A stretch of DNA of 64,000 nt from an uncultured Acidobacteriota bacterium (GCA_963823995.1 CAWGNQ010000005.1:514510-578509), one strand, 5' to 3'. Positions 31,071 through 45,449 are shown, counted from the stretch's first letter. Numbers and translations are program-made. The notes: generated by a model from the letters alone, not told the origin.

Positions 31071-31099
31071 AGACCTACTAAGTGTATGCGAAGGCCCGC

Positions 31100-31171
31100 G
31101 AATTTTCGATTTCCGATTGTCGATTTGGCGGCGACGGAGCCCTTAATCGAAAATCGGCAATCAAAATCGAA
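31100..31171. promoter_or_regulatory. AT-rich imperfect inverted repeat (TCGA/TCGG-rich arms) in the glgP promoter region; candidate operator
   Basis: AATTTTCGATTTCCGATTGTCGATTT (31100-31125) and TAATCGAAAATCGGCAATCAAAATCGAAAG (31143-31171) are imperfect reverse complements. Followed by direct CTCGAAAC / CTCGAGA / CTCGACA repeats to 31210. Lies 30-100 bp upstream of the glgP start at 31070. Confidence 0.3.
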
Positions 31172-31222
31172 AGTCTACTCGAAACTCGAGACTCGAAACA
31201 CGTAACTCGACAAGCCAAAACC

Positions 31223-31690
31223 TCACTCCCCCAGCAGAGGATCGACGGCGTCGTTGAGCTGTTGCCGCGTGATCTCGCCGAACTGCCGGAACCTCAGTTT
31301 CCCCGACCGGTCGAAGACGAAGGTTGCCGGCAGCGTGCCCATCCAGGTCGGATCGATGGAGTTGACGAACTTCTCGAAGTCGTCGAAGCCCCGGATATAG
31401 GAGGGGAACTCCGCACCCTGCTTTTCGAGAAAGGCCTCCGCCTTGGCTGCATCTTCCGGCTCGTCCATGGAAATCGACAAGACGATGAGACCCTCATCGC
31501 GCTTCGCCCGATCGAGAGCGACGAGGTAGGGGAATTCTTCGCGGCACGGGCCGCACCAGGTTGCCCAGAAGTTCAGAACCACCACCTGACCCTCGTGGTC
31601 CTGGATCAGCCGGGGCAGACCGCTCTCGTTCACCGACGGCAGAGCGACTGCCGGCGTCAACATCAGCCAGGCAAGCGCCAGAATACTCAT
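31223..31690 (-). CDS. TlpA/ResA-like thiol-disulfide oxidoreductase (thioredoxin fold), secreted
   Basis: WCGPC active site. Signal peptide MSILALAWLMLTPAVALP. Alternative start at 31705. Confidence 0.8.
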   Translation of the reverse strand: MSILALAWLMLTPAVALPSVNESGLPRLIQDHEGQVVVLNFWATWCGPCREEFPYLVALDRAKRDEGLIVLSISMDEPEDAAKAEAFLEKQGAEFPSYIRGFDDFEKFVNSIDPTWMGTLPATFVFDRSGKLRFRQFGEITRQQLNDAVDPLLGE

Positions 31691-32283
31691 CGTTTGATCG
31701 TACATCCGAACATCTTGGTAATGGGGGTCTCGACAGCTTGTCCGGTGAGAAAGGCATCCAGGGCTGCGCTCAGTTCCTTGCCATTGGTCTTGGACGTGTT
31801 CGTGGTGGGCTGATGACTGTTTCCGAGAGCCCCGTGGTAGACAACGTTCCAGGATGAGGAAGGATCGAGGAGAAAGACCTCCGGCGTGACCATGGCGCCG
31901 AAGCGATCGGCCACCGTGCTGCCGTCGTCCTTCAGAACCGTGAAATCCAGACCATGCTGCTCGGCATGAGTTCGAACCTGTTCGAGCGGTTCGGTCTTGT
32001 TGGCATTGATCCCGAGAAAGACGACACCCTTAGATCCGTATTTCCGGGCCAGATCCGCCATGACGTGGTTGAACGCGTTCGAATAGGGACACTGCGTTGC
32101 GATGAAAATGACCGCCACGGCCCGGGCGTCACGGTAGTCGGACAAGGACACGGACTGCCCGGTGTGCACGTTCTTCAAGGTGAACTCCTGGGCCCGGTCG
32201 CCGACCGTGATTCCGTCCGGCGAGGCGGAACAAGCCAGCCCCAGGGTGCTGAAAATCGCAATAAAGAGAACAAACTTCCGCAT
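31687..32283 (-). CDS. Redoxin/AhpC-TSA family thioredoxin-like protein, secreted
   Basis: Redoxin-type CPYS motif in FIATQCPYSNAF. Signal peptide MRKFVLFIAIFSTLGLACSA. ATG at 32283 with GGAGG RBS. The ORF track extends it spuriously to 32883. Confidence 0.8.
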   Translation of the reverse strand: MRKFVLFIAIFSTLGLACSASPDGITVGDRAQEFTLKNVHTGQSVSLSDYRDARAVAVIFIATQCPYSNAFNHVMADLARKYGSKGVVFLGINANKTEPLEQVRTHAEQHGLDFTVLKDDGSTVADRFGAMVTPEVFLLDPSSSWNVVYHGALGNSHQPTTNTSKTNGKELSAALDAFLTGQAVETPITKMFGCTIKR

Positions 32284-32381
32284 AGAGAAACCTCCTCCCC
32301 GCCTAGATGAAGAACTCGCCGGAAGAGTTTCCACGATGTCTCGGCGAAGTTTGGTGTCCAACCGGGTGCCGGTGACAGACT

Positions 32382-32500
32382 GTCCCATCCCACTTGACCC
32401 CGTCCCATCCCACTTGGCCCCGTCCCATGCCACTTGGCCCCGTCCCATGCCACTTGGCCCCGTCCCACACGTCCCATACGTCCCATCCGTCTCAGGCTGT
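32382..32500. repeat. Tandem direct repeats: four copies of a 20-bp unit (GTCCCATSCCACTTGRCCCC) followed by three 9-bp GTCCCAYNC units
   Basis: Read directly. Units start at 32382, 32402, 32422 and 32442, then GTCCCACAC, GTCCCATAC, GTCCCATCC. The heptamer GTCCCAT occurs 9 times between 32380 and 32507. Lies 100-220 bp upstream of the redoxin start at 32283. Confidence 0.85.
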
Positions 32501-32642
32501 CCCATTGATTGGCAGGGCGAGTCTTCTTCTCCTTCTCCTTCACAGATCCCAGGTGCGGAACGCGAATAAGAGTCAGAGGTGCGGGAATCGTCCTGAGACC
32601 TGGGTATGGGACAGACTTGATCATGGTGGAGGCGCTGCGACT

Positions 32643-34046
32643 TCAACGCTGAGAAAGATGCTCCACCTTCTTCACGTAGGCCTGGATATCGCACTTGCGC
32701 TCGAGTCCACGGGCGTTCATGTACCGTACCTTCCCGAAAACCGGTCGTTCTTTCCAGGGGCGATCGTGCAGCCCGAAAATCCACGCTACGTTGGCATAGG
32801 AACTGGCGTCTCGCCCGTCCAGAAAATAGCGGTTGTTGAGAGAGAGCGTCGTGGAAAAGGCCTCGTCCGGCGATGCCGACCATTCCAGGATCTTCTTGCC
32901 CCAGTACATGCGCATGTAATTGTGCATGTAGCCGGTTGTCCGCATCTCCCGCATGGCGGCGTTCCAGTAGGGGTCATGCGTTTCCGCCGCTGCGAGCTGC
33001 TCCCGGTTGTAGACGTGGTTACGGCGATCTTCGCGGTGATCGCCCAGAGTCCGAGCCGCCCAGTCCGGCAGGCAGGAGTAATCGTCATATGCCGGTTGAT
33101 GTTCGACGAAATTCACGGCCAGCTCACGACGTACGATCACCTCTTCGAGGAAGACTTCGACATCATGCGGGGCTGCCGCCATCCGGCGTCGTGCTTCCAG
33201 CGCCAGATAGAGGGGCGAAATCTGACCAAAATGAAGGTAGGGGCTCATGGCGGAGACATGGTCCGTCTGTGGCTGGTTTCGGTTGGCAGCGTACCGGATC
33301 AACGAATCCGCCAAGAACCGGTCGAACCGCTGCTCGGCAGCCGTCGTCCCACCTGTCCAGGAATCTGAAACCGGCTCGACCGAGCGGTCGAGTTTCAGCT
33401 GAGACAGTATGGCATCGAGATTCGAGAGGTCTTCCCCTCGGATGCCCGGATCCACCGTTTGCCCAGCCCTTCGGCTGGAAGTGGAACCAGATAGTCTCCA
33501 ATACGCCGGTGAATCTTCGGCCGAATCGTGCGGGCGGCGTACTCGGATTTGTCGGAGACCACGTCCACCGGAACCACGACGTCGCTCTCGACCTGCACGA
33601 CCCGACAGCGGGCCTTCTCTGCGACGGTCCTCCGCCACGCAGTCTGAGGGCGCAGGTATCCTCGATCGCAGACCACCAGAGCGGCCTTCTGCGCCAGTTC
33701 GAGAGCCACGCGACTGGGATCACCGAAACGCAGCACCAGGGGGATTCCCCGACGGGCCAGGCGATCTTCCGTGTCCCGCAAACCCTCGAGCATGAATCGG
33801 TAGTGCCGGAGATTCGCCTCGGGATAGGACCCGGTCAGTCCGAATCCGACCAGCACGGGCAAGCGTCGAGAAATTGGCCTCGACAATGGCATACTCGAGA
33901 GCATGGTTGAAGACGGCCCGCTGCGATTGCTGCATCCAATACAGAACGTAGCGCCCGGACCTCTCGGGCGGATCGTTGAGCCGACGGATGCGTGCGGGTT
34001 GGATCGGGGCGCTCATCTTCGTGTCTCTCAGGTGCCGAGGTTTCAC
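32643..34046 (-). pseudogene. phr: Class II CPD photolyase (deoxyribodipyrimidine photolyase) disrupted by two frameshifts
   Basis: Three consecutive minus-strand ORFs in frames 2, 1, 2 (33720..34046, 33395..33904, 32643..33638) are collinear with class II photolyase. N-terminal [46 protein letters not shown] domain HVSAMSPYLHFGQISP ... HNYMRMYWGKKILEW. Frame switches near 33835-33850 and 33640-33690. Confidence 0.7.
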
Positions 34047-34131
34047 ATCCCAGGTTCCGGGGTCTCCGAACGTGAAACGTGAAACGTGGAACGTGGAACG
34101 CGGAACGTGGAACCTGAAACGTGGAACCCTT

Positions 34132-35565
34132 CTAAACCCCCACTCGAAATGTGCTCAGCGACTTCGCCGGGAGGTCGACCGTGAACGAGCCGGAGCCCGT
34201 CTCGAACCGGCGCCGGACGGGCTCGTCCGCCTCGTTGTAGTAGATCACGACCAGTTGCCCATCGGGATTCAGGAAGGACAGACAGTTCTCGTCGGTCTCC
34301 GACTGCAAGTAGCGGGCACCCGGCCTGACGAAGGCACTGAAGTGCTTCATGAGGTAGAACTCGGGATTATAGGAGACCTCTCCGTCCTCGCCGATCGTGA
34401 TCATGGAGTTCTGCTTCCAGCCCCACTGGCTCTTGCCGGTCTGGTCGAGCACCATGTTCCAGTACATATACGACTCGACACCGTTGTTGAAGTAGTGCTT
34501 CATCAGCGAGAAGGTGTGTTCCATCGCCTTCCAGTCGTTGGTTCCTCTTCCGCACTCGGTCTCGGTCTGCATGAGCTTCAACTGCGGATAGGTCTCGTGC
34601 ACATGGCCGATGACGCCTTTGCCTGCCCACTGGAACCCAACGCCGGTCACATACTCCGCGGCATCCTCGTCCCGCAGGACGGCATCGACGCGTTCCGGCT
34701 GCGGCCGTTCGATCGTTCCCAACCAGATTTCGGTGTTCAGCTGATCCTTTTCGAACCGGGGACCCAGGTACTGCCCGATGAAACGAGCCAGGCTTTCAGG
34801 GGTCCAGATGCAGGACGGAAAGTTCTGGCAGGAATTCGGCTCGTTCTGGACGTGGACCGCATAGATGTCGATCCCCTCGCCCCGGTAGGCTTGGACGAAC
34901 CGGGAAAAGTAGAGGGCATACGCCGACAGGGTCCGGTCGTCCATGACGAACTGATCCTGCATTTCCTTTCCCTGCTTGTCAGGAGAAAGATCATTGACCT
35001 TGTCATCCGCCCGGCAGGCATAGTGCTCGTTGACCTTCATCCAGGTGGGCGGACTCCAGGGAGACGCCCAGATCTCGAGGTCGGGATCGATCGCCAGTGC
35101 GGCCTTGATGTAGGGAATGAGCCGTTGCCGGTCGCGGTCGATGGAGAAATGCTCCATCGCGTAATCACCGGGCGTTTCGTCCAGGCTGTACCAGTCGACG
35201 GAATAGTCGTTGGCCCCCAACGGCATCCGGCAGATGTTGAACCTGCAACCGGTGTCGGGATTGAAGAGATTCCCCAGGATCTCCTCTCGCTTTTCCGCTG
35301 ACACCCGTTGCAGCGCCTCCCATCCCAGTTCGTTGAAGCAGCCGCCGAACCCGTCGACGGTCTGCAGAGTCCGGGTGGGATCGACGACGATAGCCCTTGC
35401 CGCTTCGGCGTCCGGCCGGACGCCGACCTCCGCGGTCCGGTCCTTCCAAAGCTCGGCATCCCGACTGATGATCCACTCTTCGACCACTGGACCGCTGGAC
35501 CGCGAACACGCAGCCAGCCCGACCACAGCCAGACTGATGAGAACTCCTGCCAATCGTTTCTTCAT
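34132..35565 (-). CDS. Glycoside hydrolase family 30 (glucosylceramidase/xylanase-like) lipoprotein
   Basis: [13 protein letters not shown] motif typical of GH30. Lipobox LAAC in [24 protein letters not shown] at 35565 with GGAG RBS. The upstream part of the ORF-track ORF (to 36189) is Arg-rich antisense. Confidence 0.85.
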
Positions 35566-35720
35566 GTACTTGACTCCGCCCTTCGAACCGATGATGTGTC
35601 GGGTTAAAGCTCTGGGATGTCCGCGCTGAGAGGGATGGGTCTCTTCATGATTCATCTCCCCCGTGTTGCTGATTCTACCGACCAGTGAAGAGATGCGAAA
35701 GGCCGAGTGAAGGGGCTCGC

Positions 35721-36956
35721 CTACCCGACGGCATTCAGTCCCAGGGCCCGGATGTAGTCCCGATTGACCGTACCGTTTTCCAGCAGGATGTTCTTCAGCA
35801 GCCCGTCGAACGCCCGAGCGGCCAGATCGAGCGGTGGACGGGCTTCCTGGAGGGCCTTGTAACCCCGGGCCTCCCGGTTGGCGAAGCTGACGATCTGATC
35901 CCAGCCCTCGGGCGGTGCGAAGGAGACGACGCCCCGGGTCGAATCCATCTTCTTGTAGGGCCAGAACGACCAGCCGATGTCCTCTTTCTCCAGCAACTCG
36001 CGGAACCAGCGGATCCAGTCGTTGTCGTTCTCTCCCGACTCCGACATGTAGATCGGAACGTCGTATCGCTTTCTGAAGTCGAGATAGCTCTGGATGACGG
36101 CCGGGTCCTGCTCGGTCCAGTAGCGGTGGAAGGCGTAGACGAGTTTGTCGTCGAAGGGCCGGCCGAAGACGCTGAAGTCGGTATTCCACTGGGCGCCGCC
36201 CAGGATGATAATGTGGTTCGGATCGACTTCCCGGATGGCGGCCGTCATCCGCTTGTACAGCGGCTCCAGCTTCGAATCGAGCTCACGGTAGGCGTCGAAG
36301 TTCGGAATCGGCTCGTTTAGCAGTTCATAGCCGAGGACCGCCGGCTCGTCTCGGTAACGCTCCGCCAGCTTCCTCCAGACCTCAATGGCCCGCTTTTGGC
36401 TACGCTCGCTGGTGAAGAGAAACGGGTAGCCCCAGCCGTTGTCGATGTTCTCTCCGGTCTGCCCACCCGGAGCGCCGTGCATGTCGAGGACGACCCAGAG
36501 GCCAGCCTCCCGGCACCAGTCGACGAGCCGATCGATCCGCTTGAAGCCCTCCTCCAGCCAGATCTCGAGATGCGCCTCCGGGGAAAGGATCCGGTAGTCG
36601 ATCGCCGGACGTACGGAGTTGAAGCCGACGCTTTTCAAAAGACGGATGTCGACCTGGGTGACATACTCATCCCGGAAACGGCGCCAGAACTCGACGGCGT
36701 CTTCGGGACCGATGAGCTCATTGACGACGGCTTCGATCATTCGCGGAGAAGCGGCCCGGTTGAATTTCCACATGTACCCCTCGGGCAGCAGCCAGTCGCC
36801 GAGACCGATCCCCTTCAGGATCAGCTCCTTCCCGTCAGGGGTGACGATCCGTGAGCCGCGGACCGAAACAAACCCTTCGGGCGCCGCTGTCACCCTGGAG
36901 ACCGCAGCACCGGCAGACACAGCAACAGTAGAGGCAAGAAAGCGACGTCTGTTCAT
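35721..36956 (-). CDS. Glycoside hydrolase family 5 (cellulase-like) with TAT signal peptide
   Basis: Catalytic LNEP motif. TAT motif MNRRRFLASTVAVSAGAAV. ATG at 36956. The upstream ORF-track extension (to 37172) is translation of the 8-bp repeat array (PVLPSS repeats). Confidence 0.85.
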   Translation of the reverse strand: MNRRRFLASTVAVSAGAAVSRVTAAPEGFVSVRGSRIVTPDGKELILKGIGLGDWLLPEGYMWKFNRAASPRMIEAVVNELIGPEDAVEFWRRFRDEYVTQVDIRLLKSVGFNSVRPAIDYRILSPEAHLEIWLEEGFKRIDRLVDWCREAGLWVVLDMHGAPGGQTGENIDNGWGYPFLFTSERSQKRAIEVWRKLAERYRDEPAVLGYELLNEPIPNFDAYRELDSKLEPLYKRMTAAIREVDPNHIIILGGAQWNTDFSVFGRPFDDKLVYAFHRYWTEQDPAVIQSYLDFRKRYDVPIYMSESGENDNDWIRWFRELLEKEDIGWSFWPYKKMDSTRGVVSFAPPEGWDQIVSFANREARGYKALQEARPPLDLAARAFDGLLKNILLENGTVNRDYIRALGLNAVG

Positions 36957-37046
36957 GGGGGCAATTCTGGCGGACCCGAGCCTCGGGGGCAAGCGGCTTT
37001 CCTCGTAAGCGGCGACAGCGGGGGCCACCTCGCTGCTACTGCGCGG

Positions 37047-37170
37047 GTGAGAGGACGGGAGTACCGGAGAACGGGAGAACGGGAGTACGAGAGAACCGGA
37101 GAGCGGGAGAACCGGAGGACGGGAGGACCGGAGGACGGGGAGGACCGGAGAACGGGAGGACGGGTGGGAC
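37047..37170. repeat. 8-bp tandem repeat array, (CGGGAGAA)n, about 15 degenerate copies
   Basis: Read directly: cgggagta ccggagaa cgggagaa cgggagta cgagagaa ccggagag cgggagaa ccggagga cgggagga ... 90-210 bp upstream of the GH5 start (minus strand). Confidence 0.85.
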
Positions 37171-37559
37171 ATCTTGGCTATTTGGTGTCCCGACGGAAGT
37201 CGGGCAAGTTCGGCGATTCGGGTGCCCCGGCAGGGGCACGATTCTTCCAGCCGGGGGTCAAGCGCAGCGCGACCCCTGGGTTGAGGCCCGAGAAGAAATC
37301 AGGGCGTCCCGGAAGGGACGCGATCGGCGGCCGGGGGCGTCATTCGTGCCCTTGCCCCTCGCACTCGGCACCTTCGTGTTCAAAGGTGAGAGAGAACCCG
37401 ATGATCCGCGGTAGCGCGATTCGGCCCGCTGCAGCGGCGGAGAACCTAACCTCCAGAAAGTCCCTTCGGCCTGCAGGCCGCCTGAATTGGGCGAGCGCAG
37501 CATCCGTAATCGGAACCAAGCTTGCTTGCCGACGTATCTCAAGGTATTTTATGTGTCTA

Positions 37560-38460
37560 GCCGATACTTGTGGGACGACTCATTCCCTTGAGGAGGTTTG
37601 ATGATGACTTTCCTTCCGCTGCTTGCCCGACCTTCGTGAAGCCGTAGGTCCCGAGGATTCTCCCCCCGGTGGGACAGCAGTCAGCATCCCCTCGCTCGCC
37701 TACCAGGAAGATGAAACTCGCTTTGTCCTCTTCGAAGGTGTAGGTGAGATCGACGGCCGCCGAGTATCGGTACCTGTCCGTGGCTGGAAGATCGGACGTG
37801 ATCTTTTCTCTGGAATAGACGGATCCCACAACGAACTTCGTGCTCGCTGTCGTTTCAGCGGCCTCTGCCGATCGGGAAACTTCGCGGACGCTCGGGACGC
37901 CTTCATTCCGGCCCGGATGGGAGCGATGAACTTCCACCTTGGCGATTCTTTTACTATCTGGGGCTGATCACGGTCGTATGGTCTCTGTTGACGTGGATCT
38001 CCTACCTTGCAGTGCGATGGGTCATTCGGGGATTTCAGCAGTGGTATCGGTTCGGCTTTTCGGGCTATCCGCCCTGTATCGCCGTAGGGGAGGTAGGGGT
38101 AGGTTTCCATGAGTCGTCCGCTCACGTTCAACCGCGCCGTGATCGTGCCGAAGTGGTTCGTCGCAAAGAGCCTGGTCATGCCGCCGCCGTATTCGACGAG
38201 CTTAGCCCCCGAGATCCTCTGCGCGTACAAATGCAGGGTCCGAGACGCCAAGGGCGTCGCCTCATCCGAGAGCTTTGGGCAACGCCCAAAGCAAGGCTTT
38301 CTTTACCGTGCCGTTCCGCAGGCTCCGGGTGTCGATCATGGAAAAGTGGTATCAACACACGACAGTCGGGAAAGCCGACGATGAATCTACTCTTTTCGCG
38401 ACTGACACCAACCTGACTCATGTCTTGTCTACGGCCCAGCCTGGGACTACCATAACCTCC
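37560..38460 (-). other. Lower-GC region with fragmented minus-strand ORFs resembling a degraded beta-barrel outer-membrane protein gene
   Basis: Two minus frames carry beta-strand-like segments (YAQRISGAKLVEYGGGMTRLFATNHFGTITARLNVSG and TDRYRYSAAVDLTYTFEEDKASFIFLVGERGD). They are not joined in one frame. No confident family. Also contains a strong RBS plus ATGATG 12-codon mini-ORF at 37601 on the + strand. Confidence 0.25.
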
Positions 38461-38672
38461 TGACGGGCAAGGAGTTCATGAACTCCGCGGCTACCAGGAT
38501 CAATCGCAAAAAGGAAGCAAGCAACAAAAGGAGCGGGTCGTCATCCTGCGCCTGACCGAGACGTTTCCCGATTTTCTGGAGGTGCTTCCCCGGGCTCTGA
38601 GGGAGGATCTCAGGAGAGTCTAAGGCTCGCAAAGTCACATTGAGTTGTTCCTGTCGCCGTTGGGAGAGAGCG

Positions 38673-39629
38673 ATGAAGAAATTCGATGATCTTACGGAGC
38701 AGGAGATCCTGGCACTTGCCATTTCTCTGGAGGAAGAGGACGAGCGGGTCTACGCGGACTATGCGGAGGGGCTTCGCTCGCAGTTTCCCGCCTCGGCCGC
38801 GGTCTTCGACGGCATGCGGAAAGAAGAGTCCGTTCATCGTCGACGGCTGACCGAGCTTTACATGCAGAAGTTCGGAGCGCACATTCCGTTGATTCGCCGC
38901 CAAGACGTCCGAGGGTTCGTTCAGCGTACGCCTTCCTGGCTGATCCGACCGCTGGGTCTGGACACGGTACGCAAGCAGGCCAGTGCCATCGAGGCCGAGA
39001 CTCGCCGTTTCTATGAGAAGGCCGCACGCCGGACCGAAGACGCGAGCCTTCGCCAACTCCTCGACGACCTGGCTGTCGAAGAACGGGCACACGAGAGACA
39101 TGCCCATGAATTGGAGAAGAAGGCTCTGCCCGAGGACGTGAGGGAGTCCGAGGACCAGGCCAACCGTCGGCTCTTCGTCCTTCAGGTAGTTCAGCCGGGT
39201 CTGGCCGGGCTGATGGATGGCTCCGTCTCGACGCTGGCCCCGGTCTTCGCGGCGGCGATGGCTACCCGCGACAGCTGGGACGTCTTCGTCATCGGTCTGG
39301 CCGCCTCGGTGGGAGCCGGAATCAGCATGGGTTTCGCCGAAGCCCTTTCGGATGACGGCAGCCTGACGGGCCGCGGGCACCCCTGGGTCCGCGGTCTGAT
39401 CTGCGGCGGCATGACGACGCTCGGCGGAATCGGCCACACCCTTCCCTTCCTCACCCCCGCGTTCCAGCTGGCGATGACGATCGCTTTCCTGGTCGTCCTC
39501 GTCGAACTCGGCGTCATCACCTGGATCCGCCATCGCTACATGGACTCTCCGACCCTGACGGCGGCACTACAAGTCGGTCTGGGCGGCGCGCTGGTCTTCA
39601 TCAGCGGACTCCTGATCGGGAGCTCGTGA
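38673..39629 (+). CDS. Membrane-bound ferritin-like protein: rubrerythrin/ferritin-like di-iron domain fused to a VIT1/CCC1 iron-transporter domain (MbfA-like, Er-VIT1)
   Basis: Two ExxH motifs (EESVHRRRL, EERAHERHAHE) in the N-terminal domain. VIT1 signatures GLMDGSVSTLAPVFAA, GFAEALSDDGS, GGMTTLGGIGHTLPFL. GGGAGAGAG RBS before the ATG at 38673. Confidence 0.85.
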   Translation: MKKFDDLTEQEILALAISLEEEDERVYADYAEGLRSQFPASAAVFDGMRKEESVHRRRLTELYMQKFGAHIPLIRRQDVRGFVQRTPSWLIRPLGLDTVRKQASAIEAETRRFYEKAARRTEDASLRQLLDDLAVEERAHERHAHELEKKALPEDVRESEDQANRRLFVLQVVQPGLAGLMDGSVSTLAPVFAAAMATRDSWDVFVIGLAASVGAGISMGFAEALSDDGSLTGRGHPWVRGLICGGMTTLGGIGHTLPFLTPAFQLAMTIAFLVVLVELGVITWIRHRYMDSPTLTAALQVGLGGALVFISGLLIGSS

Positions 39630-39633
39630 TACA

Positions 39634-40028
39634 GGGGAGTCGGGAGAACCGGAGGACGGGAGAACGGGAGAATGGGAGAACGGGAGGACCGAGGGCGGGA
39701 TGGGGGATTTGAGTGGGTCCTGCGGTCGCGGGGCTCCTTCGGACTCATCGAGAGAGGAGACTTTGGAGGTTGTGAGACTGCGCCGTAGCCGCCTTGGAAG
39801 TGCGGCAGCCTGATGCCGCTTTTCACGGGGCGGGCCCGGATTCGCCAGAAAACCGACGCTGAGCAAGCAGCGGCGGATCCTCGAGTCTTTCGTCGGCCGG
39901 CGAAGGGGCGACAAGATTGGGAATCCGCGTTGAGCCGATAGCGGAAGCGAACTTCCGCACTTCCAAAGAGGCTTCGCCGCAGCTCCGGTTTCCCATTCTC
40001 CCTTTCTCCGGTTCTCCCGTCCTCCCGC
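39634..40028. repeat. MITE-like structure in a convergent intergenic region: (CGGGAGAA)n array at 39634-39705, its inverted copy at 39987-40028, flanking a ~36-bp imperfect inverted repeat pair and hairpins
   Basis: Left array cgggagaacc ggaggacggg agaacgggag aatgggagaa cgggaggacc. Right array is its reverse complement (ggtttcccattctccctttctccggttctcccgtcctcccg). Inner IR gagaCTGCGccGtAGCCgcctTGGAAGTGCGG (39774-39805) pairs with 39941-39986. Local hairpins GCGGAAGcgaaCTTCCGC (39941-39958) and GCGGCAgcctgaTGCCGC (39802-39819). Confidence 0.7.
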
Positions 40029-40029
40029 T

Positions 40030-40866
40030 TCACCGTGCGGGTGCAGCGTCAGGCCTGTGCTCGACCACGTAATTCGCCACGGTTCCGACCGGTGCGATCC
40101 AGATGCCGTTGGCGGGATCGTTGGCGTATCGGCAGAGGGCATCGAGCGTGGATGAGTAGGTCGTCTGCGCATCCGAATCGCCGATTTCGTGGCCGGCGAG
40201 GATTAGCCATCGGCCGTGTGTCACCGCATCCTCGATCAGCGGCCGGATCCGGTCGAAGTCCTTATTGTCGCTCTCCATGGCCAGCAGCTGGGCCATGTCG
40301 CAAAACCACGGGTCGTTCGAGTTTTCGTCCAGCCAGCCCCGGCCCGACGAAAACAGCTCCGCAACCAAAGGCACATAGCTCTGGACATGCTTTCCCCGAC
40401 CGACGAACTTCTGACCACAGGGGTAGGCGAAGGATGTCGGCGTGACACCCAGCTTTTCATGGATGAGCCGGTCGGCCTCCTCGAGTTGGGTGCGCATCTT
40501 CCCCAGCGAGTAGCCCTCGAGGGCGTTCCGACGCGACCAGACGAAATTGCCGGTGCAGGGATGGCTGACCGAGTGATTGCCGATCTCTTGGCCGTCGGCC
40601 ACGGCCTTCTTCCAGGCTTCCAACCTCTGATCCAGGGGCCCCGGCTGGACATAAAAGGTGGCCTTGACCCCGTACCGGTCGAGCAGCGGGATTCCCTCAT
40701 CCGGCTGGCTGAGTCGGGCGTCGTCGAAGCTCAGGCTCAGCGCCGCTCTCTTCCCATCGGGCCATGGAAAAGGCTCGGAGGAGGTCTCGGAGCCTTCATA
40801 TTGCGCAAAGGCCAGAGTCGAGACGGCCAGGACAAGAAAGATGCTTCCCGTGGATTTCGACAACAT
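40030..40866 (-). CDS. Polysaccharide deacetylase (carbohydrate esterase family 4), secreted
   Basis: NodB-type motifs FDDA, HSVSHP. Signal peptide MLSKSTGSIFLVLAVSTLAFA. Confidence 0.85.
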   Translation of the reverse strand: MLSKSTGSIFLVLAVSTLAFAQYEGSETSSEPFPWPDGKRAALSLSFDDARLSQPDEGIPLLDRYGVKATFYVQPGPLDQRLEAWKKAVADGQEIGNHSVSHPCTGNFVWSRRNALEGYSLGKMRTQLEEADRLIHEKLGVTPTSFAYPCGQKFVGRGKHVQSYVPLVAELFSSGRGWLDENSNDPWFCDMAQLLAMESDNKDFDRIRPLIEDAVTHGRWLILAGHEIGDSDAQTTYSSTLDALCRYANDPANGIWIAPVGTVANYVVEHRPDAAPAR

Positions 40867-41085
40867 CAGCAGTCTCCTTCGTCGATCGTTGCCCTTCGGT
40901 CGTCACCAACGATAACGCTGCGACCACAATCTGACCAGCAGCTGGTCTTCCGGGCGGGTTCGGGCCAGAATGAAGACCTCGGCGAGGCGGTGTCGACAGT
41001 CTCCCGGAGCACGTCTGCTCCACCTGCGGCATCTTGCGGATGCCGGGCCAAGGCGATCCATGACGAAGAAAGAAGGCGAACGAAG

Positions 41086-43441
41086 TTGAGAAAGTCCGTG
41101 GTTCTGACTCTGGCAACCCTCTTCATCGTTTCCACTCGGTTCGAATTCTCCCAAACCGGCGGTGATCGTCCCCTCTATCGGGATCCGAACCAGCCGATCG
41201 CGCGCAGAGTCGAGGACCTCCTGAACCGCATGACGCTCGAAGAGAAGATCGGCCAGATGAATATGCCGTGCGTTTATGAAGACGGGCTGGGACGCAGCAT
41301 CGAGGCCAAGACCTCGAGTGTGAAAGCGTGGGCCGCCGGAACCTTGATCGAAAACTTGGGCCCGAGCGGCGGGTACTTCACCCTGCCCAACACGATCCTG
41401 CGCGAGGGGACCCGGCAACAGGTTCTGTTCCTGAACGAACTGCAACGAATCGCCGCCGGGACCCGACTCGGGATTCCGCTGCTCGAAACCGAAGAAGGCA
41501 CCCACGGTCTGATGTGTTCCGGAACGACGATCTTCCCGGAAGGGCCGGCCCTGGGCAGCACCTGGGACCTGGACCTCATTTCGCGCATCTACGCCGCCGT
41601 CGCCCGGGAGGCCCGCTCGATCGGCATCCACCAGATTTTCACACTCGTCGTCGAGCCGATCCGGGATCCGAGGCTGGGCCGGAACCAGGAAGCGTACAGT
41701 GAAGATCCGTACCTGTGTTCACGCTTGGCCGAAACGATCGTGCGAGCCGCCCAAGGGAACGATGTCTCGTCTCCCGATCACGTCGTGGCCGGCCTGTGCC
41801 ACTATCCGGGACAGAGCCAGCCGGTCAGCGGACTCGAACGGGGTGCCATGGAGATCTCGGAGCGGACCCTCCGGGAGACCTTTCTTCCCTCCTGGGAAGC
41901 CGGAATCAAAAAGGCGGGGGGCCTCGGCGTCATGGCGACCTATCCGGCCGTCAACGGGGTACCCACGCACGCGTCCGAATGGCTTCTAACACAGATCCTG
42001 CGGAAAGAGTTGGGCTTTCGCGGGCTCGTCTTGAGCGAAGGCGGGGGCATCGGCACGCTGGTCTATGAAGGTTTGGCTCCGAACCAGAAGATCGCCGGTC
42101 GGCTGGCGCTCCGGGCCGGGGTGGATGTGGGCATCTCCTTTGAATCGGGCTATATGCAGGACCTGGTCCACTCCGTTGAGGAGGGCGCAGTGCCCATGGA
42201 ACTGATTGATCGGGCTGTCGGACGCATCCTGGAGCAGAAGTTCCGCCTCGGACTGTTCGAGAATGCGCAGTCAGACCTGGACAGGGCCGTCGAGGTCGTC
42301 CACAGCGGAAATCATCAGGATCTTGCCCTCGAGGCGGCTCGTGAGGGTGTCGTCCTCTTGAAGAACCAGGATGAGCTGCTGCCTCTGAGCGACAACATCC
42401 GCTCCCTCGCGGTCATCGGGCCCAACGCGGACAACGAGCGGAACCAGCTGGGAGACTACGTCGCCCACACCGTTCTTCAGGACGTGGTCACCGTGCTCGA
42501 CGGCATCCGACAGGCCGTCTCTCCAACGACCGGCGTGACCTACGTCAAGGGATGTGACGTCACCCTGACGCCGTACGACGAGATTGCCAGGGCCAGGGTC
42601 GGCCGCAGCCGGAGCCGACTGCGCCGTCGTCGTCCTCGGTGAGAACGAATGGCAGGCCCGGGACGAGGACGGCAAGCGGGTCGGGACCGACGGAGAGGGC
42701 TTCGATTCCGCCACTCTCGAGTTGACCGGAAGGCAGCGGGAGCTGGTCCAGGCAGTCGTCGACACCGGAACGCCCACCGTCGTCGTTCTGATCAACGGGC
42801 GTCCGCTGGCGACGCGTTGGATCGACGCCCACGTTCCGGCCGTCGTCGAGGCCTGGATCCCCGGCGAGAAGGGGGGCCAGGCCGTCGCGGAAGTCCTCCT
42901 CGGAAAGGTCGATCCGAGCGGAAAGTTGAGCGTGACCGTACCCCGGCACGTCGGCCAGTTGCCTGTCTACTACGACCACAAGAAGTCGAAGCGCTACTGG
43001 ATCCGGCATGGCTGGGGCAGGCCCTACGTGGACATGGATCCCGCACCCCTCTATCCGTTCGGTCACGGCCTGAGCTATACGTCCTTCGAATACGAGAATC
43101 TCAGGATCACGCCGGAACAAATCGGACCAGGTGGAACGGTGACGGTTCAGATGGATTTGCGCAACAGGGGATCACGCTACGGGAAAGAGGTCGTTCAGCT
43201 CTACATCGAAGACCTCGTGGCGACGGTGGCGACGCCGGTCAAGGAACTGCGCGGCTTCGAGAAGATCGGTCTGCGGCCCGGAGAGACGAAAACGGTGACC
43301 TTCGAGCTGACACCGGACCTCCTGGCCCTCTACGACCGCCACATGCAGAGGGTCGTCGAGCCCGGCCGCTTCAAGGTCAAGCTCGGCAGTTCCTCCCAGG
43401 ACATCCGCCTCACCGGCACCTTCACGGTCCAAAATCGGTGA
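41086..43441 (+). CDS. Glycoside hydrolase family 3 (beta-glucosidase/beta-xylosidase-like) with C-terminal Fn3-like domain; reading frame broken near 42593-42612
   Basis: GH3 N-domain (KIGQMN..., HYPGQS, GLVLSEGGGIG) in frame 1 up to 42642. GH3 C-domain and Fn3-like domain (CAVVVLGENEW ... PLYPFGHGLSY) in frame 2 from about 42590. The switch lies in the direct repeat CCAGGGCCAGGG. Start inferred as TTG at 41086 (MRKSVVLTLATLFIVST signal), low certainty. The ORF-track N-terminal extension to 40216 is antisense of the CE4 gene. Confidence 0.75.
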
Positions 43442-43505
43442 CACGCACGTAACGGCGTCGTAAGGTCCTGCCAACAAAGACTTTTGGTGCCGGTCTGGTA
43501 CTTCT
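43433..43505 (+). repeat. Copy B of the 3'-flanking repeat element
   Basis: aatcGGTGACACGCACGTAacggcgtCGTAAGGtcctgccaacaaagacttttggtgCCGGTCTGGtac. The GH3 stop TGA (43439-43441) lies inside the GGTGAC core. Confidence 0.8.
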
Positions 43506-43637
43506 TTGGAAACCAGCTGCGCATACGATGGTGAGGATGCGTGGCCGGAACCGCCTCCGATGGGAGCTGGTGAGGCACTTCGAGCAGGGCATCATCCAGC
43601 CGATTCGGAGCAAGGCGCGCCCGCGTCGAAATTGGAG

Positions 43638-43709
43638 AAAAGTACCAGACTCGGACCAGAAGCCTTTATTAGTAACCACTTACGAGGCAATTACGTGCGT
43701 GTCACCAAT
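43638..43709 (-). repeat. Copy C of the 3'-flanking repeat element (inverted orientation)
   Basis: The reverse complement reads gattGGTGACACGCACGTAattgcctCGTAAGtggttactaataaaggcttctggtCCGAGTCTGGtac. Forms an inverted pair with copy B about 130 bp away. Confidence 0.8.
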
Positions 43710-43776
43710 CTCCCTGGAATCGCCGTCGCTCGTGGGCGTCCGGGGGCGCTGTTTTCCACCGCAAAACTGGGGAAAG

Positions 43777-43853
43777 GTGCCAGACGTAGCACGAAAGTCT
43801 TTGTTGATGATGGTTTACAAGTCTAATCCGTGCGTGTCACCAATTTCGTCCAG
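43777..43853 (-). repeat. Copy D of the 3'-flanking repeat element (inverted orientation)
   Basis: The reverse complement reads aattGGTGACACGCACGgattagactTGTAAaccatcatcaacaaagactttcgtgctaCGTCTGGcac. Starts 9 nt after the GH51 stop (TGA at 43854-43856, minus strand). Confidence 0.75.
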
Positions 43854-45449
43854 TCACACATCGAGACGGAGGATGTTCACCGAATGCGGACCGAGCGCGA
43901 TCGTTCCGTCGAAACCGTCCAGCCGGCGGGTCTCGGGCTTCACTCTCTCCGGGTGATTCACGTCGTTGTACGCGTCGGGGGAGGGTCCTGCCAGGATCGT
44001 GACCGTGGGGCGGGAGTTCCCGGACGCATTCGCGAGCATCGGCCGGCAGACCACGGTCGCGTCGGGGTGCCGATTCACGATGGCCATCGAAACGGCTCGA
44101 CGATCGTCGCTGCAGGTGACGACGGCGTCCAGGACGGGCACGCTCTCGCCGCTGTGCGCGAAGGCGTCACACCGAACCGAGGACGCGACCATGTTCGGCT
44201 GCAGGAACTCGCCGTACATCTTCAGGACATGGAAAGTCGTGCGCTTGACGATGCCTTTCGGGTGGACGAACAGAGGCCCCCGGGTGTTGACGACAGGCGC
44301 CATGTTGGCCATGTAGATATGCTTCGCCTGCCGGATGCACGCGTTCAGGAAGCACCCCGAAAAACAGGCATCGGCCATCGTGTACGTGTCGTTCAAATCG
44401 TTCTTGTCCCGCTCCTTCAGGAGTTCCTCGCTCTTCCTGATCGGATAATTGCCGGGATGATGCCAACCCCTCAGATTCCATTCATCGAAGGCGATCCGGA
44501 CTCGGTCGGAGAGTTCCGCCTCTTCGAGAATCGCAATCGTGTCGAAAATCTGTGCTTCGGGCTTGACGGATCGCATCATGCAGTCCGCATAGCCGCTGAC
44601 ATTGTTGACCTGCCAGAGCGGATCCCAGTAACCGTGGATCGAGATGTAGTCCAGATAGTCTCCGGCACGCTCGAGCAGGGGCATCGTCCACTCACGATTG
44701 GACTGGGCGGCGGCGAACAGTTTGATCGAGGGATCGACCATCCGCATCATCTTGGCCGATTCGCGAACGAAATAGCCCCACTCTTCGTCGGTCTTCGCTC
44801 CGATTTCCCAGCCGCCGTAGTTCTCGTTCCCAATGCTCCAGTAACGGACATTGTGGGGTTCCGCGAAGCCGTTTCCCTGTCGCATCTTCGCGTACTGTCC
44901 TTCGTGTTCCAGATTGCAGTACTCGACCCAGTCGCTCATTTCCTCAGGCGTGCCGGAACCCGCATTCGTGCAGATATAGGGTTCGGCCCCGATCTCCCGG
45001 CACCAGGTCACGAACTCGTCGGTGCCGAAGGTATTCGGATCCTCGACCTTCCAGGCTTTGTCATAGGCGGCGACGCGCGGCGTGGCGACACCGTTCTTCC
45101 AGTGGTATCCGGAGACGAAGCAGCCACCGGGCCAACGGACGACCGGCACCTTCAGCTCGCGCAACGCCGCGATGACGTCCTTGCGAAAGCCCCGCCTGTC
45201 CGAAAGCGGAGATCCGGGCGCGAAGATTCCTCCGTACACCTGACGGTGGAAGTGCTCGATGAACTGGCCGAAGATCATCCGGCTGACGGGCGTCAAATCG
45301 GACTGCAGGTCGACTTCGATCTCTGCAGATGTAGACTGAGCGAACATTCCACGCAGCGAGTGGGAAAAAGCGGCGGCACCAAGCGTCGTCTTTGTCGTCA
45401 CGCCGAAGAAATTGCGTCGATTCATCTCATTCATCGCTTTGATACTCAT
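43854..45449 (-). CDS. Glycoside hydrolase family 51 alpha-L-arabinofuranosidase with TAT signal peptide
   Basis: IGNENYGGWE catalytic-region motif. TAT motif NRRNFFGVTTKTTLGAAAF. ATG at 45449 (MSIKAMNEMNRRNFF) with GGAGG RBS 5 nt upstream. Confidence 0.85.
   Translation of the reverse strand: MSIKAMNEMNRRNFFGVTTKTTLGAAAFSHSLRGMFAQSTSAEIEVDLQSDLTPVSRMIFGQFIEHFHRQVYGGIFAPGSPLSDRRGFRKDVIAALRELKVPVVRWPGGCFVSGYHWKNGVATPRVAAYDKAWKVEDPNTFGTDEFVTWCREIGAEPYICTNAGSGTPEEMSDWVEYCNLEHEGQYAKMRQGNGFAEPHNVRYWSIGNENYGGWEIGAKTDEEWGYFVRESAKMMRMVDPSIKLFAAAQSNREWTMPLLERAGDYLDYISIHGYWDPLWQVNNVSGYADCMMRSVKPEAQIFDTIAILEEAELSDRVRIAFDEWNLRGWHHPGNYPIRKSEELLKERDKNDLNDTYTMADACFSGCFLNACIRQAKHIYMANMAPVVNTRGPLFVHPKGIVKRTTFHVLKMYGEFLQPNMVASSVRCDAFAHSGESVPVLDAVVTCSDDRRAVSMAIVNRHPDATVVCRPMLANASGNSRPTVTILAGPSPDAYNDVNHPERVKPETRRLDGFDGTIALGPHSVNILRLDV

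What the first reader, a model, noticed from the sequence alone, without database searches (positions are those of the whole stretch)
37047..40028. (CGGGAGAA)n 8-bp microsatellite arrays at three sites, including an inverted pair framing a hairpin-rich MITE-like intergenic element
Arrays of the same degenerate octamer occur at 37047-37170 (about 15 copies, upstream of GH5), 39634-39705 (about 9 copies, just after the MbfA-like gene stop) and, in inverted orientation, 39987-40028 (5 copies, just after the CE4 stop). The last two are terminal inverted repeats around a 280-bp segment that itself carries a ~36-bp imperfect inverted repeat pair and two perfect small hairpins, giving an overall foldback, MITE-like architecture between convergent genes. 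The two same-orientation arrays also bracket a 2.5-kb segment holding the low-GC degraded region and the MbfA-like gene, suggesting recombination or insertion history. The minus-strand sense reads (GTTCTCCC)n and creates fake PVLPSS-repeat peptides in the ORF track.
Basis: seen in the sequence. Interest (0 to 1): 0.55.

Follow-up and report, generated by a model that had tools for sequence, protein, structure and literature searches.

The report
G-rich 8-bp repeat arrays at gene ends
The three (CGGGAGAA)n arrays are real and belong to a known but functionally unexplained kind of bacterial repeat, G-rich short tandem arrays that sit directly against gene ends all over a genome; the "transposon-like" inverted pair arises mainly because two converging genes each carry their own array after the stop codon.

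Summary
Degenerate 8-bp arrays (unit CSGGAGRA) lie at 37047-37170, 39634-39705 and, inverted, at 39985-40028. There are none elsewhere in the 64 kb and none in shuffled sequence.

They are not random low complexity. The same octamer occurs at 22 fetched places in one Acidobacteriota genome assembled from a metagenome (a MAG) and in many Gemmatimonadales MAGs, almost always between genes. Read on the G-rich strand, an array hugs the gene on its 5' side: median 40 nt against 178 nt to the 3' gene. When that gene is on the same strand, the array starts a median of 10 nt after its stop codon. Arrays 2 and 3 both follow this rule, each G-rich in the sense of its own gene. Pairs within 600 nt are 15:1 "G-rich first".

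A relative with 90% identical MbfA keeps array 1 (10 units against 15) and a post-stop array of 7-mers, so unit numbers change, as slippage would cause.

The inner inverted repeat is a doublet resembling REP (repetitive extragenic palindrome) elements, with copies in other genomes. The 2.5-kb "bracketed insertion" idea fails: only 37337-38660, an orphan RHS toxin-tip fragment, is extra.

This matches the G-rich 7-mer repeats described in Xanthomonas and Nostoc (PMC4692102). It is a new member of a known kind, and its function is still inferred.

The parts
37047..37170 (+). Array 1: 15 degenerate octamers (TGAGAGGA CGGGAGTA CCGGAGAA ... CGGGTGGG), G-rich on the plus strand. It lies 90 nt upstream of the GH5 start, on GH5's non-coding strand.
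   Evidence: An orthologous array with 10 units and the same edge units is present in L117 and L118.
37220..37336 (+). Hairpin-rich ~115-nt module that follows array 1 (gtgccccggcaggggcac.. ccagggtc..gaccctgg.. gcgtcccggaagggacgc).
   Evidence: Conserved after array 1 in L117 and L118. It recurs at L117 10808-10923, again just after an octamer-like array. No Rfam match.
39634..39705 (+). Array 2: about 9 units, G-rich in the sense of the MbfA-like gene, starting 4-11 nt after its stop. It contains a canonical G-quadruplex motif at 39658-39684.
   Evidence: A post-stop array is also present in the 96% and 90% MbfA relatives (L121, L117, L118), with different units and numbers.
39985..40028 (-). 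Array 3: 5-6 units, G-rich when read on the minus strand, which is the sense of CE4. It starts 2 nt after the CE4 stop.
   Evidence: No array in the 36 nt visible after the stop of the 82%-identical CE4 in L120.
39778..39820 (.). Left arm of the inner inverted repeat: one copy of a REP-like ~45-nt element. It includes the hairpin GCGGCA-gcctga-TGCCGC (39802-39819), followed by TTTTCAC.
   Evidence: Homologous copies in L072 1-530 and L117 3860-3985.
39940..39982 (.). Right arm of the inner inverted repeat: the inverted copy of the same REP-like element. It includes the hairpin GCGGAAG-cgaa-CTTCCGC (39941-39958).
39857..39872 (-). Terminator-like hairpin CGCTGCTTGCTCAGCG plus TCGGTTTTCT on the CE4 strand.
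   Evidence: The number of such sites in the region is not above shuffles, so this is only a lead.
35721..36956 (-). GH5 glycoside hydrolase gene, downstream of array 1.
   Evidence: Pfam Cellulase, E = 2.5e-31. Database gene call.
38673..39629 (+). MbfA-like gene (rubrerythrin + VIT1) whose stop precedes array 2.
40030..40866 (-). CE4 polysaccharide deacetylase gene whose stop precedes array 3.

Best explanation
The three arrays belong to a dispersed family of G-rich simple-sequence repeats with long (8-nt) units that occupy gene boundaries.

Shown:
- The family is multi-copy and intergenic in related genomes.
- Read on its G-rich strand, an array abuts the gene on its 5' side. It sits either right after that gene's stop codon, in the gene's sense (arrays 2 and 3), or upstream of its start on the non-coding strand (array 1).
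- Unit number and even unit length change between orthologous arrays, as expected for replication slippage.

Consequence: two converging genes that each carry a post-stop array automatically form a "G-rich first, C-rich second" inverted pair. Here that pair encloses a separate doublet of REP-like elements, which produces the large foldback.

Inferred, not shown: the arrays act as structured 3'-UTR or extragenic elements. The single-stranded G-rich RNA or DNA could form a G-quadruplex (clearest for array 2). Any transcript that reads through to the partner array could form a long purine-pyrimidine stem. Together with the REP-like hairpins, this would stabilise 3' ends or block transcription running into the converging gene.
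For: The arrays are specific to these three sites.

Family and genome-wide spread:
- A genome scan for CSGGAGRA x3 returned more than 114 places. 22 of the fetched loci come from one Acidobacteriota MAG (Spart_036) and 38 from Gemmatimonadales MAGs.
- 37 of 39 arrays in Spart_036 plus the window, and 56 of 64 in Gemmatimonadales, are intergenic.

Position rule:
- For 90 intergenic arrays, the median distance is 40 nt to the 5' gene against 178 nt to the 3' gene (73:16, p = 7e-10).
- With a same-strand 5' gene, the median is 10 nt after the stop, and 36 of 49 lie within 30 nt.
- Only 3 arrays lie within 30 nt of a stop in the C-rich orientation.
- In 8 Gemmatimonadales cases the stop codon overlaps the start of the array as called, for example cgg[TAG]AACGGGAGAA.
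- Opposite-strand array pairs within 600 nt are 15 inward and 1 outward.

Pairing: arrays pair better with downstream than with upstream sequence (-49.8 vs -34.1 kcal/mol for post-stop arrays; a 14/16 complement is found downstream in 15 of 36 and upstream in 1).

Orthology and slippage:
- Array 1 has 15 units in the window and 10 in L117/L118, with identical edge units.
- The post-MbfA array is (ACGGGAG)x4 in L117 and x5 in L118. Those two share an identical MbfA protein. The window has 8-mers at that site.
- L121 (MbfA 96% identical) also has a post-stop array.
- About a dozen of 77 more distant MbfA orthologues carry unrelated 7-mer arrays starting right after the stop, several followed by an inverted complement.

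G-quadruplex motif in array 2.

Precedent: Rehm et al. 2015 (PMC4692102) describe the same rules for GGGAATC and GGGGAYT repeats. Those repeats are closest to the 5' ORF whatever its orientation. [quoted passage not shown] They vary in length between related species and are transcribed, and their function is unresolved.
Against: - No expression or 3'-end data exist, so the functional half is inference.
- Arrays 1 and 3 lack a canonical G-quadruplex motif (G4Hunter 0.94-0.95), so a quadruplex cannot be the common denominator.
- If the internal U-tract hairpins (39802-39826 plus strand, 39872-39857 minus strand) terminate transcription, neither transcript reaches the partner array. The array-array stem would then not form in RNA.
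- About half of post-stop arrays elsewhere have no complementary partner within 300 nt.
- A purely RNA-level role does not explain arrays like array 1, which lie upstream of a gene on its non-coding strand.
- The CE4 array is absent in the 82% relative as far as 36 nt show.
Confidence: 0.55

Rival explanations
1. MITE or foldback transposon: 39634-40028 is one mobile non-autonomous element. Its terminal inverted repeats are built from octamer arrays, and it inserted between the two converging genes.
For: - The arms are 50 nt and 80% complementary, and the region is a strong foldback.
- At the orthologous site after MbfA, L118 carries a ~230-nt segment absent from L117. It is bounded by 29-nt inverted arms made of tandem 14-mers (GTTCCGAGTTCCTG) and by an imperfect 8-9-nt direct repeat (gtcgtttcg / gtctttcg). 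Elements of this build therefore do come and go in this lineage.
- Inverted array pairs recur.
Against: - No direct repeat flanks 39634-40028 (gtgataca | ... | ttcaccgt).
- The inner 279 nt has no other copy in the window or in the other loci held at that point (all but the 80 fetched later). The only matches are the ~45-nt REP-like arms.
- Each array obeys the single-array rule of abutting its own gene's stop in sense. This rule also holds for many unpaired arrays.
- The MbfA post-stop array exists in relatives where the downstream gene is co-directional and no inverted partner is present (L117).
Confidence: 0.12
2. Neutral or selfish by-product. Slippage-prone arrays arise and persist wherever selection allows, meaning non-coding DNA up to the gene edge, and have no function for the cell.
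For: - Units and lengths turn over quickly.
- Unrelated 7-mers arise after the same gene in other lineages.
- The arrays are degenerate, 76-84% matches.
- The CE4 array is not seen in the 82% relative.
- No function was found for the Xanthomonas and Nostoc repeats either.
Against: - A neutral process does not predict the strong strand rule relative to the neighbouring gene (36 sense against 3 antisense within 30 nt of a stop) or the 15:1 inward polarity of pairs.
- It does not predict one unit family dominating many loci in a genome.
- It does not predict retention of an array at the same two positions between genomes whose DNA is about 82% identical there.
Confidence: 0.22
3. Binding platform for a trans-acting factor. 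The units carry GGAG/GGAGG (Shine-Dalgarno-like) and GGA (CsrA-like) motifs and almost no U, so they hold no start or stop codons. An array in a 3' UTR could hold 30S subunits or an RNA-binding protein. The C-rich complement upstream of GH5 could mimic the anti-Shine-Dalgarno sequence.
For: - Unit sequences.
- 3-22 units per array, a range I recall as similar to the GGA-site counts of CsrB/RsmZ-type sponge RNAs (my own knowledge, not checked here).
- The same octamer is used in two phyla.
Against: - The scan was designed to find this octamer, so sharing across phyla is partly an artefact of how the loci were found.
- Other lineages and other loci use units without these motifs: CGGTAGAA, CGGGCGGA, GATTGCA, GGTCGTC.
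- The Xanthomonas and Nostoc units are not Shine-Dalgarno-like.
- No Rfam family matches.
- No protein partner was looked for.
Confidence: 0.07
4. Phase-variable switch. Changes in the unit number of array 1 alter promoter geometry and switch GH5 expression, as in contingency loci.
For: Array 1 is upstream of GH5 and differs by 5 units (about 40 bp) between the window and L117/L118.
Against: - The array is degenerate, 78% matches.
- It is identical in an independent ENA assembly (L001) of what looks like the same population.
- L117 and L118 have the same unit number.
- Most family members lie after stop codons of ordinary metabolic genes.
- Rehm et al. reached the same negative conclusion for their repeats.
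Confidence: 0.04

Closest known systems
G-rich heptameric simple-sequence repeats of Xanthomonas (GGGAATC) and Nostoc (GGGGAYT), Rehm et al. 2015, PLoS One (PMC4692102)
   Same: - Head-to-tail G-tract-containing units of 6-9 nt, from 2 to more than 20 units.
- Dispersed over the genome and strongly intergenic.
[quoted passage not shown]
- Inverted copies can form stem-loops.
- The same loci carry different lengths in related species.
- Not tied to surface or virulence genes.
- Function unknown (searches compared).
   Different: - The unit is 8 nt and purine-rich (CSGGAGRA), often alternating a GGG unit with a GG unit, so G-quadruplex potential is weaker and uneven.
- The hosts are Acidobacteriota and Gemmatimonadota.
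- No preference for four units was tested here.
- No biophysical or transcript data.
Cyanobacterial STRR (short tandemly repeated repetitive) heptamer sequences
   Same: Tandem 7-bp units in intergenic DNA that can form hairpins. Their function is unknown. Proposed roles are transcript stability or translational coupling (PMC2670836).
   Different: Different units and hosts. The position rule was not examined in that source. Comparison rests on a brief description only.
REP / REPIN elements (repetitive extragenic palindromes and their inverted doublets)
   Same: The inner arms 39778-39820 / 39940-39982 are ~45-nt hairpin-bearing elements in an inverted doublet between converging genes. Homologous doublets occur in other genomes (L072 two tandem doublets, L117). 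REPs are reported to sit in extragenic space and are hypothesised to act in termination or mRNA stabilisation (PMC3733652 abstract).
   Different: The octamer arrays themselves are tandem, not palindromic. No RAYT transposase (the enzyme that moves REPs) was sought. Only 8 copies were seen in the DNA held.
MITEs and foldback elements whose inverted arms are made of tandem repeats
   Same: Inverted arms built of short tandem units around a non-coding centre. A clear presence/absence case with flanking direct repeats exists in L118 against L117.
   Different: For the window element there is no target-site duplication, no second copy and no empty site. The arms are explained by the gene-end rule.

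Membership tests
Dispersed G-rich long-unit simple-sequence repeats (Rehm et al. 2015 type) | Head-to-tail repeats of a 6-9-nt unit containing a G-tract | tested here: met
   Period 8, 5.8-14.1 copies, units CGGGAGAA / CCGGAGGA.
Dispersed G-rich long-unit simple-sequence repeats (Rehm et al. 2015 type) | Many copies spread over a genome, over-represented in non-coding DNA | tested here: met
   Three arrays in the 64-kb window, all intergenic. 22 fetched loci from the Spart_036 MAG, whose arrays are almost all intergenic. 56 of 64 arrays intergenic in Gemmatimonadales. The complete source genome was not available.
Dispersed G-rich long-unit simple-sequence repeats (Rehm et al. 2015 type) | [quoted passage not shown] | tested here: met
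   73:16 closer to the 5' gene. Median 10 nt after the stop when on the same strand. [quoted passage not shown]
Dispersed G-rich long-unit simple-sequence repeats (Rehm et al. 2015 type) | Unit number differs between related genomes at the same locus | tested here: met
   Array 1 has 15 units against 10. The post-MbfA array has 4 against 5 heptamers in L117/L118 and octamers in the window.
Dispersed G-rich long-unit simple-sequence repeats (Rehm et al. 2015 type) | Forms G-quadruplexes | tested here: inconclusive
   In silico only. Array 2 has a canonical motif (39658-39684, G4Hunter 1.39). Arrays 1 and 3 do not (0.94-0.95). Spectroscopy cannot be done here.
MITE / foldback transposon | Terminal inverted repeats | tested here: met
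   50 nt, 80% complementary. The arms are tandem arrays that also occur singly.
MITE / foldback transposon | Target-site duplication at the ends | tested here: not met
   The flanks gtgataca and ttcaccgt share no direct repeat.
MITE / foldback transposon | Several copies of the whole element in the genome | tested here: not met
   The inner 279 nt matches nothing else in the window or in the other loci held at that point, apart from the REP-like arms. The whole genome was not searched.
MITE / foldback transposon | Empty site in a close relative | not testable with these tools
   In L117 and L118 the gene downstream of MbfA is different (VWA, co-directional), so no orthologous empty site exists. 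An exact search for the array-1 junction in metagenomes found nothing.
REP / REPIN (inner inverted repeat only) | Short extragenic palindrome-bearing unit, in inverted doublets, multi-copy | tested here: met
   Window doublet, four copies in L072, a doublet in L117 between converging genes.
REP / REPIN (inner inverted repeat only) | Associated RAYT transposase in the genome | not tested
   No search was made.
Intrinsic (hairpin plus U-tract) terminator | GC-rich stem-loop followed by a U run, downstream of the stop | tested here: inconclusive
   The minus-strand site 39872-39857 passes the scan. The plus-strand hairpin 39802-39819 has only TTTT. Two sites in the region against 3.2 expected in shuffles.
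Contingency locus (phase-variable repeat) | Near-perfect repeats in a promoter or coding region, varying within populations | tested here: not met
   76-84% matches. Identical in an independent ENA assembly (L001), and a Logan contig (L002) matches up to its end at array 2. Two of the three arrays lie after stop codons.
Known structured RNA families (Rfam 15) | Match to a covariance model | tested here: not met
   No hit at E <= 1 in 30000-44000, apart from one chance snoRNA-like match at 43253.

The most novel reading that the evidence does not exclude
Purine-first tandem-repeat arrays placed directly after stop codons might be a general 3'-end device of Acidobacteriota and Gemmatimonadota, and by analogy of Xanthomonas and Nostoc, that works without a U-tract. 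The G/A-rich arm is made first. The C/U-rich partner arm gives a weak RNA:DNA hybrid just as a very stable purine-pyrimidine RNA stem, or a G-quadruplex, forms, and this releases or protects the transcript. Because the stem is built from repeats, slippage would tune it gene by gene.
Probability: 0.12. Interest if true: 0.7.

Novelty: new member of a known kind. Interest (0 to 1): 0.35.

Why it matters
These repeats are numerous, follow a strict placement and strand rule, and have now been seen in at least four phyla, yet nobody knows what they do. The rule is that the G-rich strand runs away from the nearest gene, often starting at the stop codon itself. It was reproduced here with a different unit length in two more phyla, which makes a common cause (functional or mutational) more likely than a quirk of Xanthomonas or Nostoc.

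On the practical side, the arrays create false open reading frames. Three short-read contigs fetched here end at or inside them. They can also be mistaken for transposon ends.

Tried and rejected
- Rfam search of 30000-44000: nothing relevant.
- Sigma-70 promoter scan: 0 sites. Terminator scan: not above shuffles.
- Fraction of array bases paired in minimum-free-energy folds: too noisy in GC-rich sequence. Replaced by duplex energies and ungapped complement counts.
- First two versions of my gene caller mis-called the CE4/GH3 region. The dynamic-programming version reproduced the database calls.
- Streptomyces and other actinobacterial hits from the genome scan: half lie inside predicted genes, so they were treated as unrelated coding repeats and left out of the statistics.
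- Exact search for the array-1 left junction in JGI metagenomes: 0 hits.
- Copy-number polymorphism within the source population: none between the window and ENA contig L001.
- H-DNA or triplex reading: a pyrimidine interrupts the purine run every 8 nt and the arrays are direct, not mirror, repeats. Not pursued.
- CRISPR: excluded by the 8-nt period without spacers.
- Pfam and NCBIfam on ORFs overlapping the arrays and the 37.3-38.7 kb segment: no families.
Full report
**1. Observation**

The region was read directly. Tandem Repeats Finder reports three period-8 arrays:
- 37051-37164: 14.1 copies, 78% matches
- 39641-39686: 5.8 copies, 84% matches
- 39983-40027: 5.8 copies, 76% matches, reverse-complement units

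Parsed into units:
- Array 1: TGAGAGGA CGGGAGTA CCGGAGAA CGGGAGAA CGGGAGTA CGAGAGAA CCGGAGAG CGGGAGAA CCGGAGGA CGGGAGGA CCGGAGGA (1-nt slip) GGGGAGGA CCGGAGAA CGGGAGGA CGGGTGGG
- Array 2: AGGGGAGT CGGGAGAA CCGGAGGA CGGGAGAA CGGGAGAA TGGGAGAA CGGGAGGA CCGAGGGC...
- Array 3, read on the minus strand: CGGGAGGA CGGGAGAA CCGGAGAA AGGGAGAA TGGGAAAC

Three consecutive CSGGAGRA units with up to 2 mismatches occur 15 times in the window. All 15 lie inside these arrays, and none occur in 100 shuffles. Single exact octamers elsewhere are scattered singletons.

Genes around the arrays:
- GH5 is 35721-36956 on the minus strand (Pfam Cellulase), so array 1 is 90 nt upstream of its start.
- The rubrerythrin-VIT1 (MbfA-like) gene is 38673-39629 on the plus strand.
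- CE4 is 40030-40866 on the minus strand.

- arrays 2 and 3 as 50-nt arms, 80% complementary
- inner arms 39778-39820 / 39940-39982, 43 nt at 77%

The two small perfect hairpins are at 39802-39819 and 39941-39958. The 411-nt region folds with z = -6.4 (plus strand) and -8.6 (minus strand) against shuffles.

**2.

Array 3, read in the sense of CE4 (minus strand), is also G-rich and begins 2 nt after the CE4 stop. Array 2 begins 4-11 nt after the MbfA stop. So both converging genes carry the same kind of array, in sense, directly after the stop codon. Once that is true, an inverted pair follows automatically.

**3. The family elsewhere**

- 22 of the fetched loci come from one Acidobacteriota MAG (Spart_036, JARRKC01).
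- 38 come from Gemmatimonadales or Gemmatimonadaceae MAGs.
- Others come from Vicinamibacterales, Verrucomicrobiota and Phycisphaerae.
- Many come from Streptomyces.

I wrote a codon-likelihood gene caller with dynamic-programming selection of non-overlapping genes. It reproduces the database gene calls for this locus.

Coding or intergenic:
- Spart_036 plus the window: 37 of 39 arrays intergenic
- Gemmatimonadales: 56 of 64 intergenic
- Actinobacterial hits: half coding, so set aside as unrelated

Position and orientation for the 90 intergenic arrays with two neighbours, oriented G-rich 5'->3':
- The median distance to the 5' gene is 40 nt and to the 3' gene 178 nt (73 against 16, binomial p = 7e-10).
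- If the 5' gene is on the same strand, the array starts a median of 10 nt after its stop, and 36 of 49 lie within 30 nt.
- Only 3 arrays lie within 30 nt of a stop in the C-rich orientation.

In 8 Gemmatimonadales cases the stop codon overlaps the start of the array as called, for example cgg[TAG]AACGGGAGAA. Unit variants include CGGTAGAA, CGGGCGGA, CGGGGGAA, CGGGGAA, CGGGAGTA and CCGAAGGA.

Where two arrays of opposite orientation lie within 600 nt, 15 pairs are "G-rich then C-rich" and 1 is the reverse. Arrays are more complementary to downstream than to upstream sequence:
- Duplex energy for the 36 post-stop arrays is -49.8 downstream against -34.1 kcal/mol upstream.
- A 14-of-16 complement is found downstream in 15 of 36 and upstream in 1.
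- About half have no partner.

**4. Orthologous loci**

Source of the window:
- It is 99.96% identical to a 337-kb ENA contig (L001) over 20.8 kb, with identical arrays.
- A Logan short-read contig (L002) matches the window only as far as 39641, the first unit of array 2.

L117 and L118 are two NCBI Acidobacteriota MAGs that share one MbfA protein, 90% identical to the window's. They keep the order GH5 (minus), array 1, MbfA (plus).
- Array 1 is present with the same edge units but 10 units instead of 15.
- Right after the MbfA stop, L117 has (ACGGGAG)x4 and L118 x5, where the window has octamers.

Other relatives:
- L121 (MbfA 96% identical) also has a post-stop array, and its contig ends inside it.
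- L119 (81%) has none.
- The only close CE4 relative (82%, L120) shows no array in the 36 nt available after its stop.
- Among 77 MbfA orthologues of 72-80% identity from JGI metagenomes, about a dozen carry unrelated 7-mer arrays (GATTGCA, GGTCGTC, GGTCTTA, GTTTCTC ...). These start immediately after the stop, and several are followed by the inverted complement.

Together these comparisons show three things. Arrays are kept at a given gene end over moderate divergence. They change unit number and unit type, as slippage would cause. They arise repeatedly at the same kind of site.

**5. The rest of the foldback**

The inner arms are not unique. They match a ~45-nt element made of a small hairpin followed by ..CTTCCAA(R)GGCGGCT.CGCCGCAG.
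- It is present four times in L072 (another Acidobacteriota MAG), as two tandem 236-nt doublets.
- It is present as a doublet in L117 between two converging genes.

This is REP/REPIN-like. The remaining inner sequence has no other copy in the DNA held at that point.

The plus strand has GCGGCA-gcctga-TGCCGC followed by TTTTCAC at 39802-39826. The minus strand has a hairpin plus TCGGTTTTCT at 39872-39857. If these act as terminators, each array lies in the 3' UTR between the stop and the terminator.

**6. The "bracketed 2.5-kb segment"**

Alignment with L117 and L118 shows conserved sequence from GH5 through array 1 and a hairpin-rich module to 37336, and again from 38661 through MbfA. Only 37337-38660 is extra in the window.

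ORF 37700-38251 (minus strand) in that segment matches, over residues 6-59 at 55-70% identity, the end of the RHS/YD-shell core of polymorphic toxins. Pfam run on four of the hits found RHS_repeat, TEN_YD-shell and Ntox44. It is therefore an orphan RHS tip fragment. MbfA and both arrays are ancestral to the window and L117/L118, so recombination between the arrays is not indicated.

**7. Is anything here a MITE?**

For 39634-40028 there is no target-site duplication, no second copy and no empty site to compare.

L118, however, carries a ~230-nt segment just after its post-stop array that L117 lacks. It is bounded by 29-nt inverted arms made of tandem 14-mers and by an imperfect 8-9-nt direct repeat, and it folds into a long hairpin. 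Foldback elements with repeat-built arms therefore do exist in this lineage.

**8. Comparison with what is known**

Rehm et al. 2015 (PMC4692102) describe GGGAATC repeats in Xanthomonas and GGGGAYT repeats in Nostoc:
- genome-wide, intergenic, 2-26 units
[quoted passage not shown] - length-variable between related species at the same loci
- transcribed, forming G-quadruplexes in vitro, not linked to phase variation
- function unresolved

Cyanobacterial STRR heptamers are described similarly. They can form hairpins, and their proposed roles are transcript stability or translational coupling (PMC2670836).

The window's arrays meet every sequence-level criterion of this kind. They differ in three ways:
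- The unit is 8 nt.
- The hosts belong to different phyla.
- G-quadruplex potential is uneven. Array 2 has a canonical motif (G4Hunter 1.39), while arrays 1 and 3 score 0.94-0.95 with no canonical motif.

**9. Mechanism**

Shown:
- family membership
- the placement and strand rule
- slippage-type length change
- emergence of the inverted pair from two gene-end arrays plus a REP-like doublet

Inferred:
- The arrays act as structured 3'-UTR or extragenic elements, through a G-quadruplex or a purine-pyrimidine stem with the partner arm.
- They may protect 3' ends or stop transcription running into the converging gene.
- The "purine first" polarity is the same as that of bidirectional terminators (A-tract, hairpin, U-tract). 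It would put the weak pyrimidine-RNA:purine-DNA hybrid at the 3' arm. This part is my own reasoning and untested.

Weak points:
- Arrays such as array 1, upstream of a gene on its non-coding strand, are not explained by a 3'-UTR role.
- Half of the arrays have no partner.
- The loci were selected by motif.

**10. Verdict**

This is a real, non-random feature. It is a new member (octamer unit, Acidobacteriota and Gemmatimonadota) of a known but functionally unexplained kind. Interest is moderate to low for this locus. The unresolved placement rule across phyla is the part worth following.

Noticed in passing
window 37337-38660: This segment is absent from relatives L117 and L118. ORF 37700-38251 (minus strand) matches the end of RHS/YD-shell cores of polymorphic toxins over residues 6-59. 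Window 38242-38291 also matches L038 2142-2192 at 90%.
   Followed up: partly
L118 1779-2012 (absent between L117 6999 and 7000): A ~230-nt insertion/deletion polymorphism between two MAGs with identical MbfA. It is bounded by 29-nt inverted arms made of tandem 14-mers GTTCCGAGTTCCTG and by an imperfect direct repeat gtcgtttcg / gtctttcg. This is a foldback, MITE-like element. Similar GTTCCGAG-type flanks surround the array pair in L050.
   Followed up: partly
window 37220-37336; L117 5605-5718 and 10808-10923: A ~115-nt module of three hairpins follows array 1. It recurs in L117 after a second octamer-like array, so array plus module may be a composite repeat. No Rfam match.
   Followed up: partly
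window 39778-39820 and 39940-39982; L072 1-530; L117 3860-3985: A REP-like ~45-nt element in inverted doublets, shared between different Acidobacteriota genomes. In L072 it forms two tandem 236-nt doublets.
   Followed up: partly
window 34068-34127, 31177-31210, 31102-31126, 32382-32491: Other intergenic tandem arrays with different units. (GAACGTG)8.6 lies 4 nt after the GH30 stop. (ACTCGAA)4.9 lies 12 nt after a stop. The 20-mer and 9-mer arrays are G-rich on the minus strand and contain two canonical G-quadruplex motifs. The GAACGTG array is pyrimidine-rich in the sense of GH30, so the purine-in-sense rule does not hold for every repeat family.
   Followed up: partly
window 33365-34029 (photolyase gene): All 8 differences between the window and the ENA contig L001 over 20.8 kb cluster here, including three single-base indels. 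In the window the photolyase reading frame is split. This could be assembly error or a real variable patch.
   Followed up: no
L002 end (window 39641); L121 end; L069 start: Short-read contigs end at or inside these arrays. Three such cases were seen among the contigs fetched here.
   Followed up: no
L063, L075, L086, L098, L105 (Gemmatimonadales): The hairpin repeat gtcatcccgagcgtagcgagggatccct follows the octamer arrays in several loci. It is another dispersed extragenic palindrome.
   Followed up: no
L016 1851-2117, L092 706-968, L018, L084, L106, L066, L082 (Spart_036): In Spart_036 many arrays sit inside a larger recurring unit. The left flank is ctgaggtcg..cacgagcgttg..ctccaaaggtcagacggcgagaa and the right flank is ccggagcgtgagtaggataagcttccagcttgtccc. 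In L016 two such units sit 123 nt apart, and in L092 111 nt apart.
   Followed up: no
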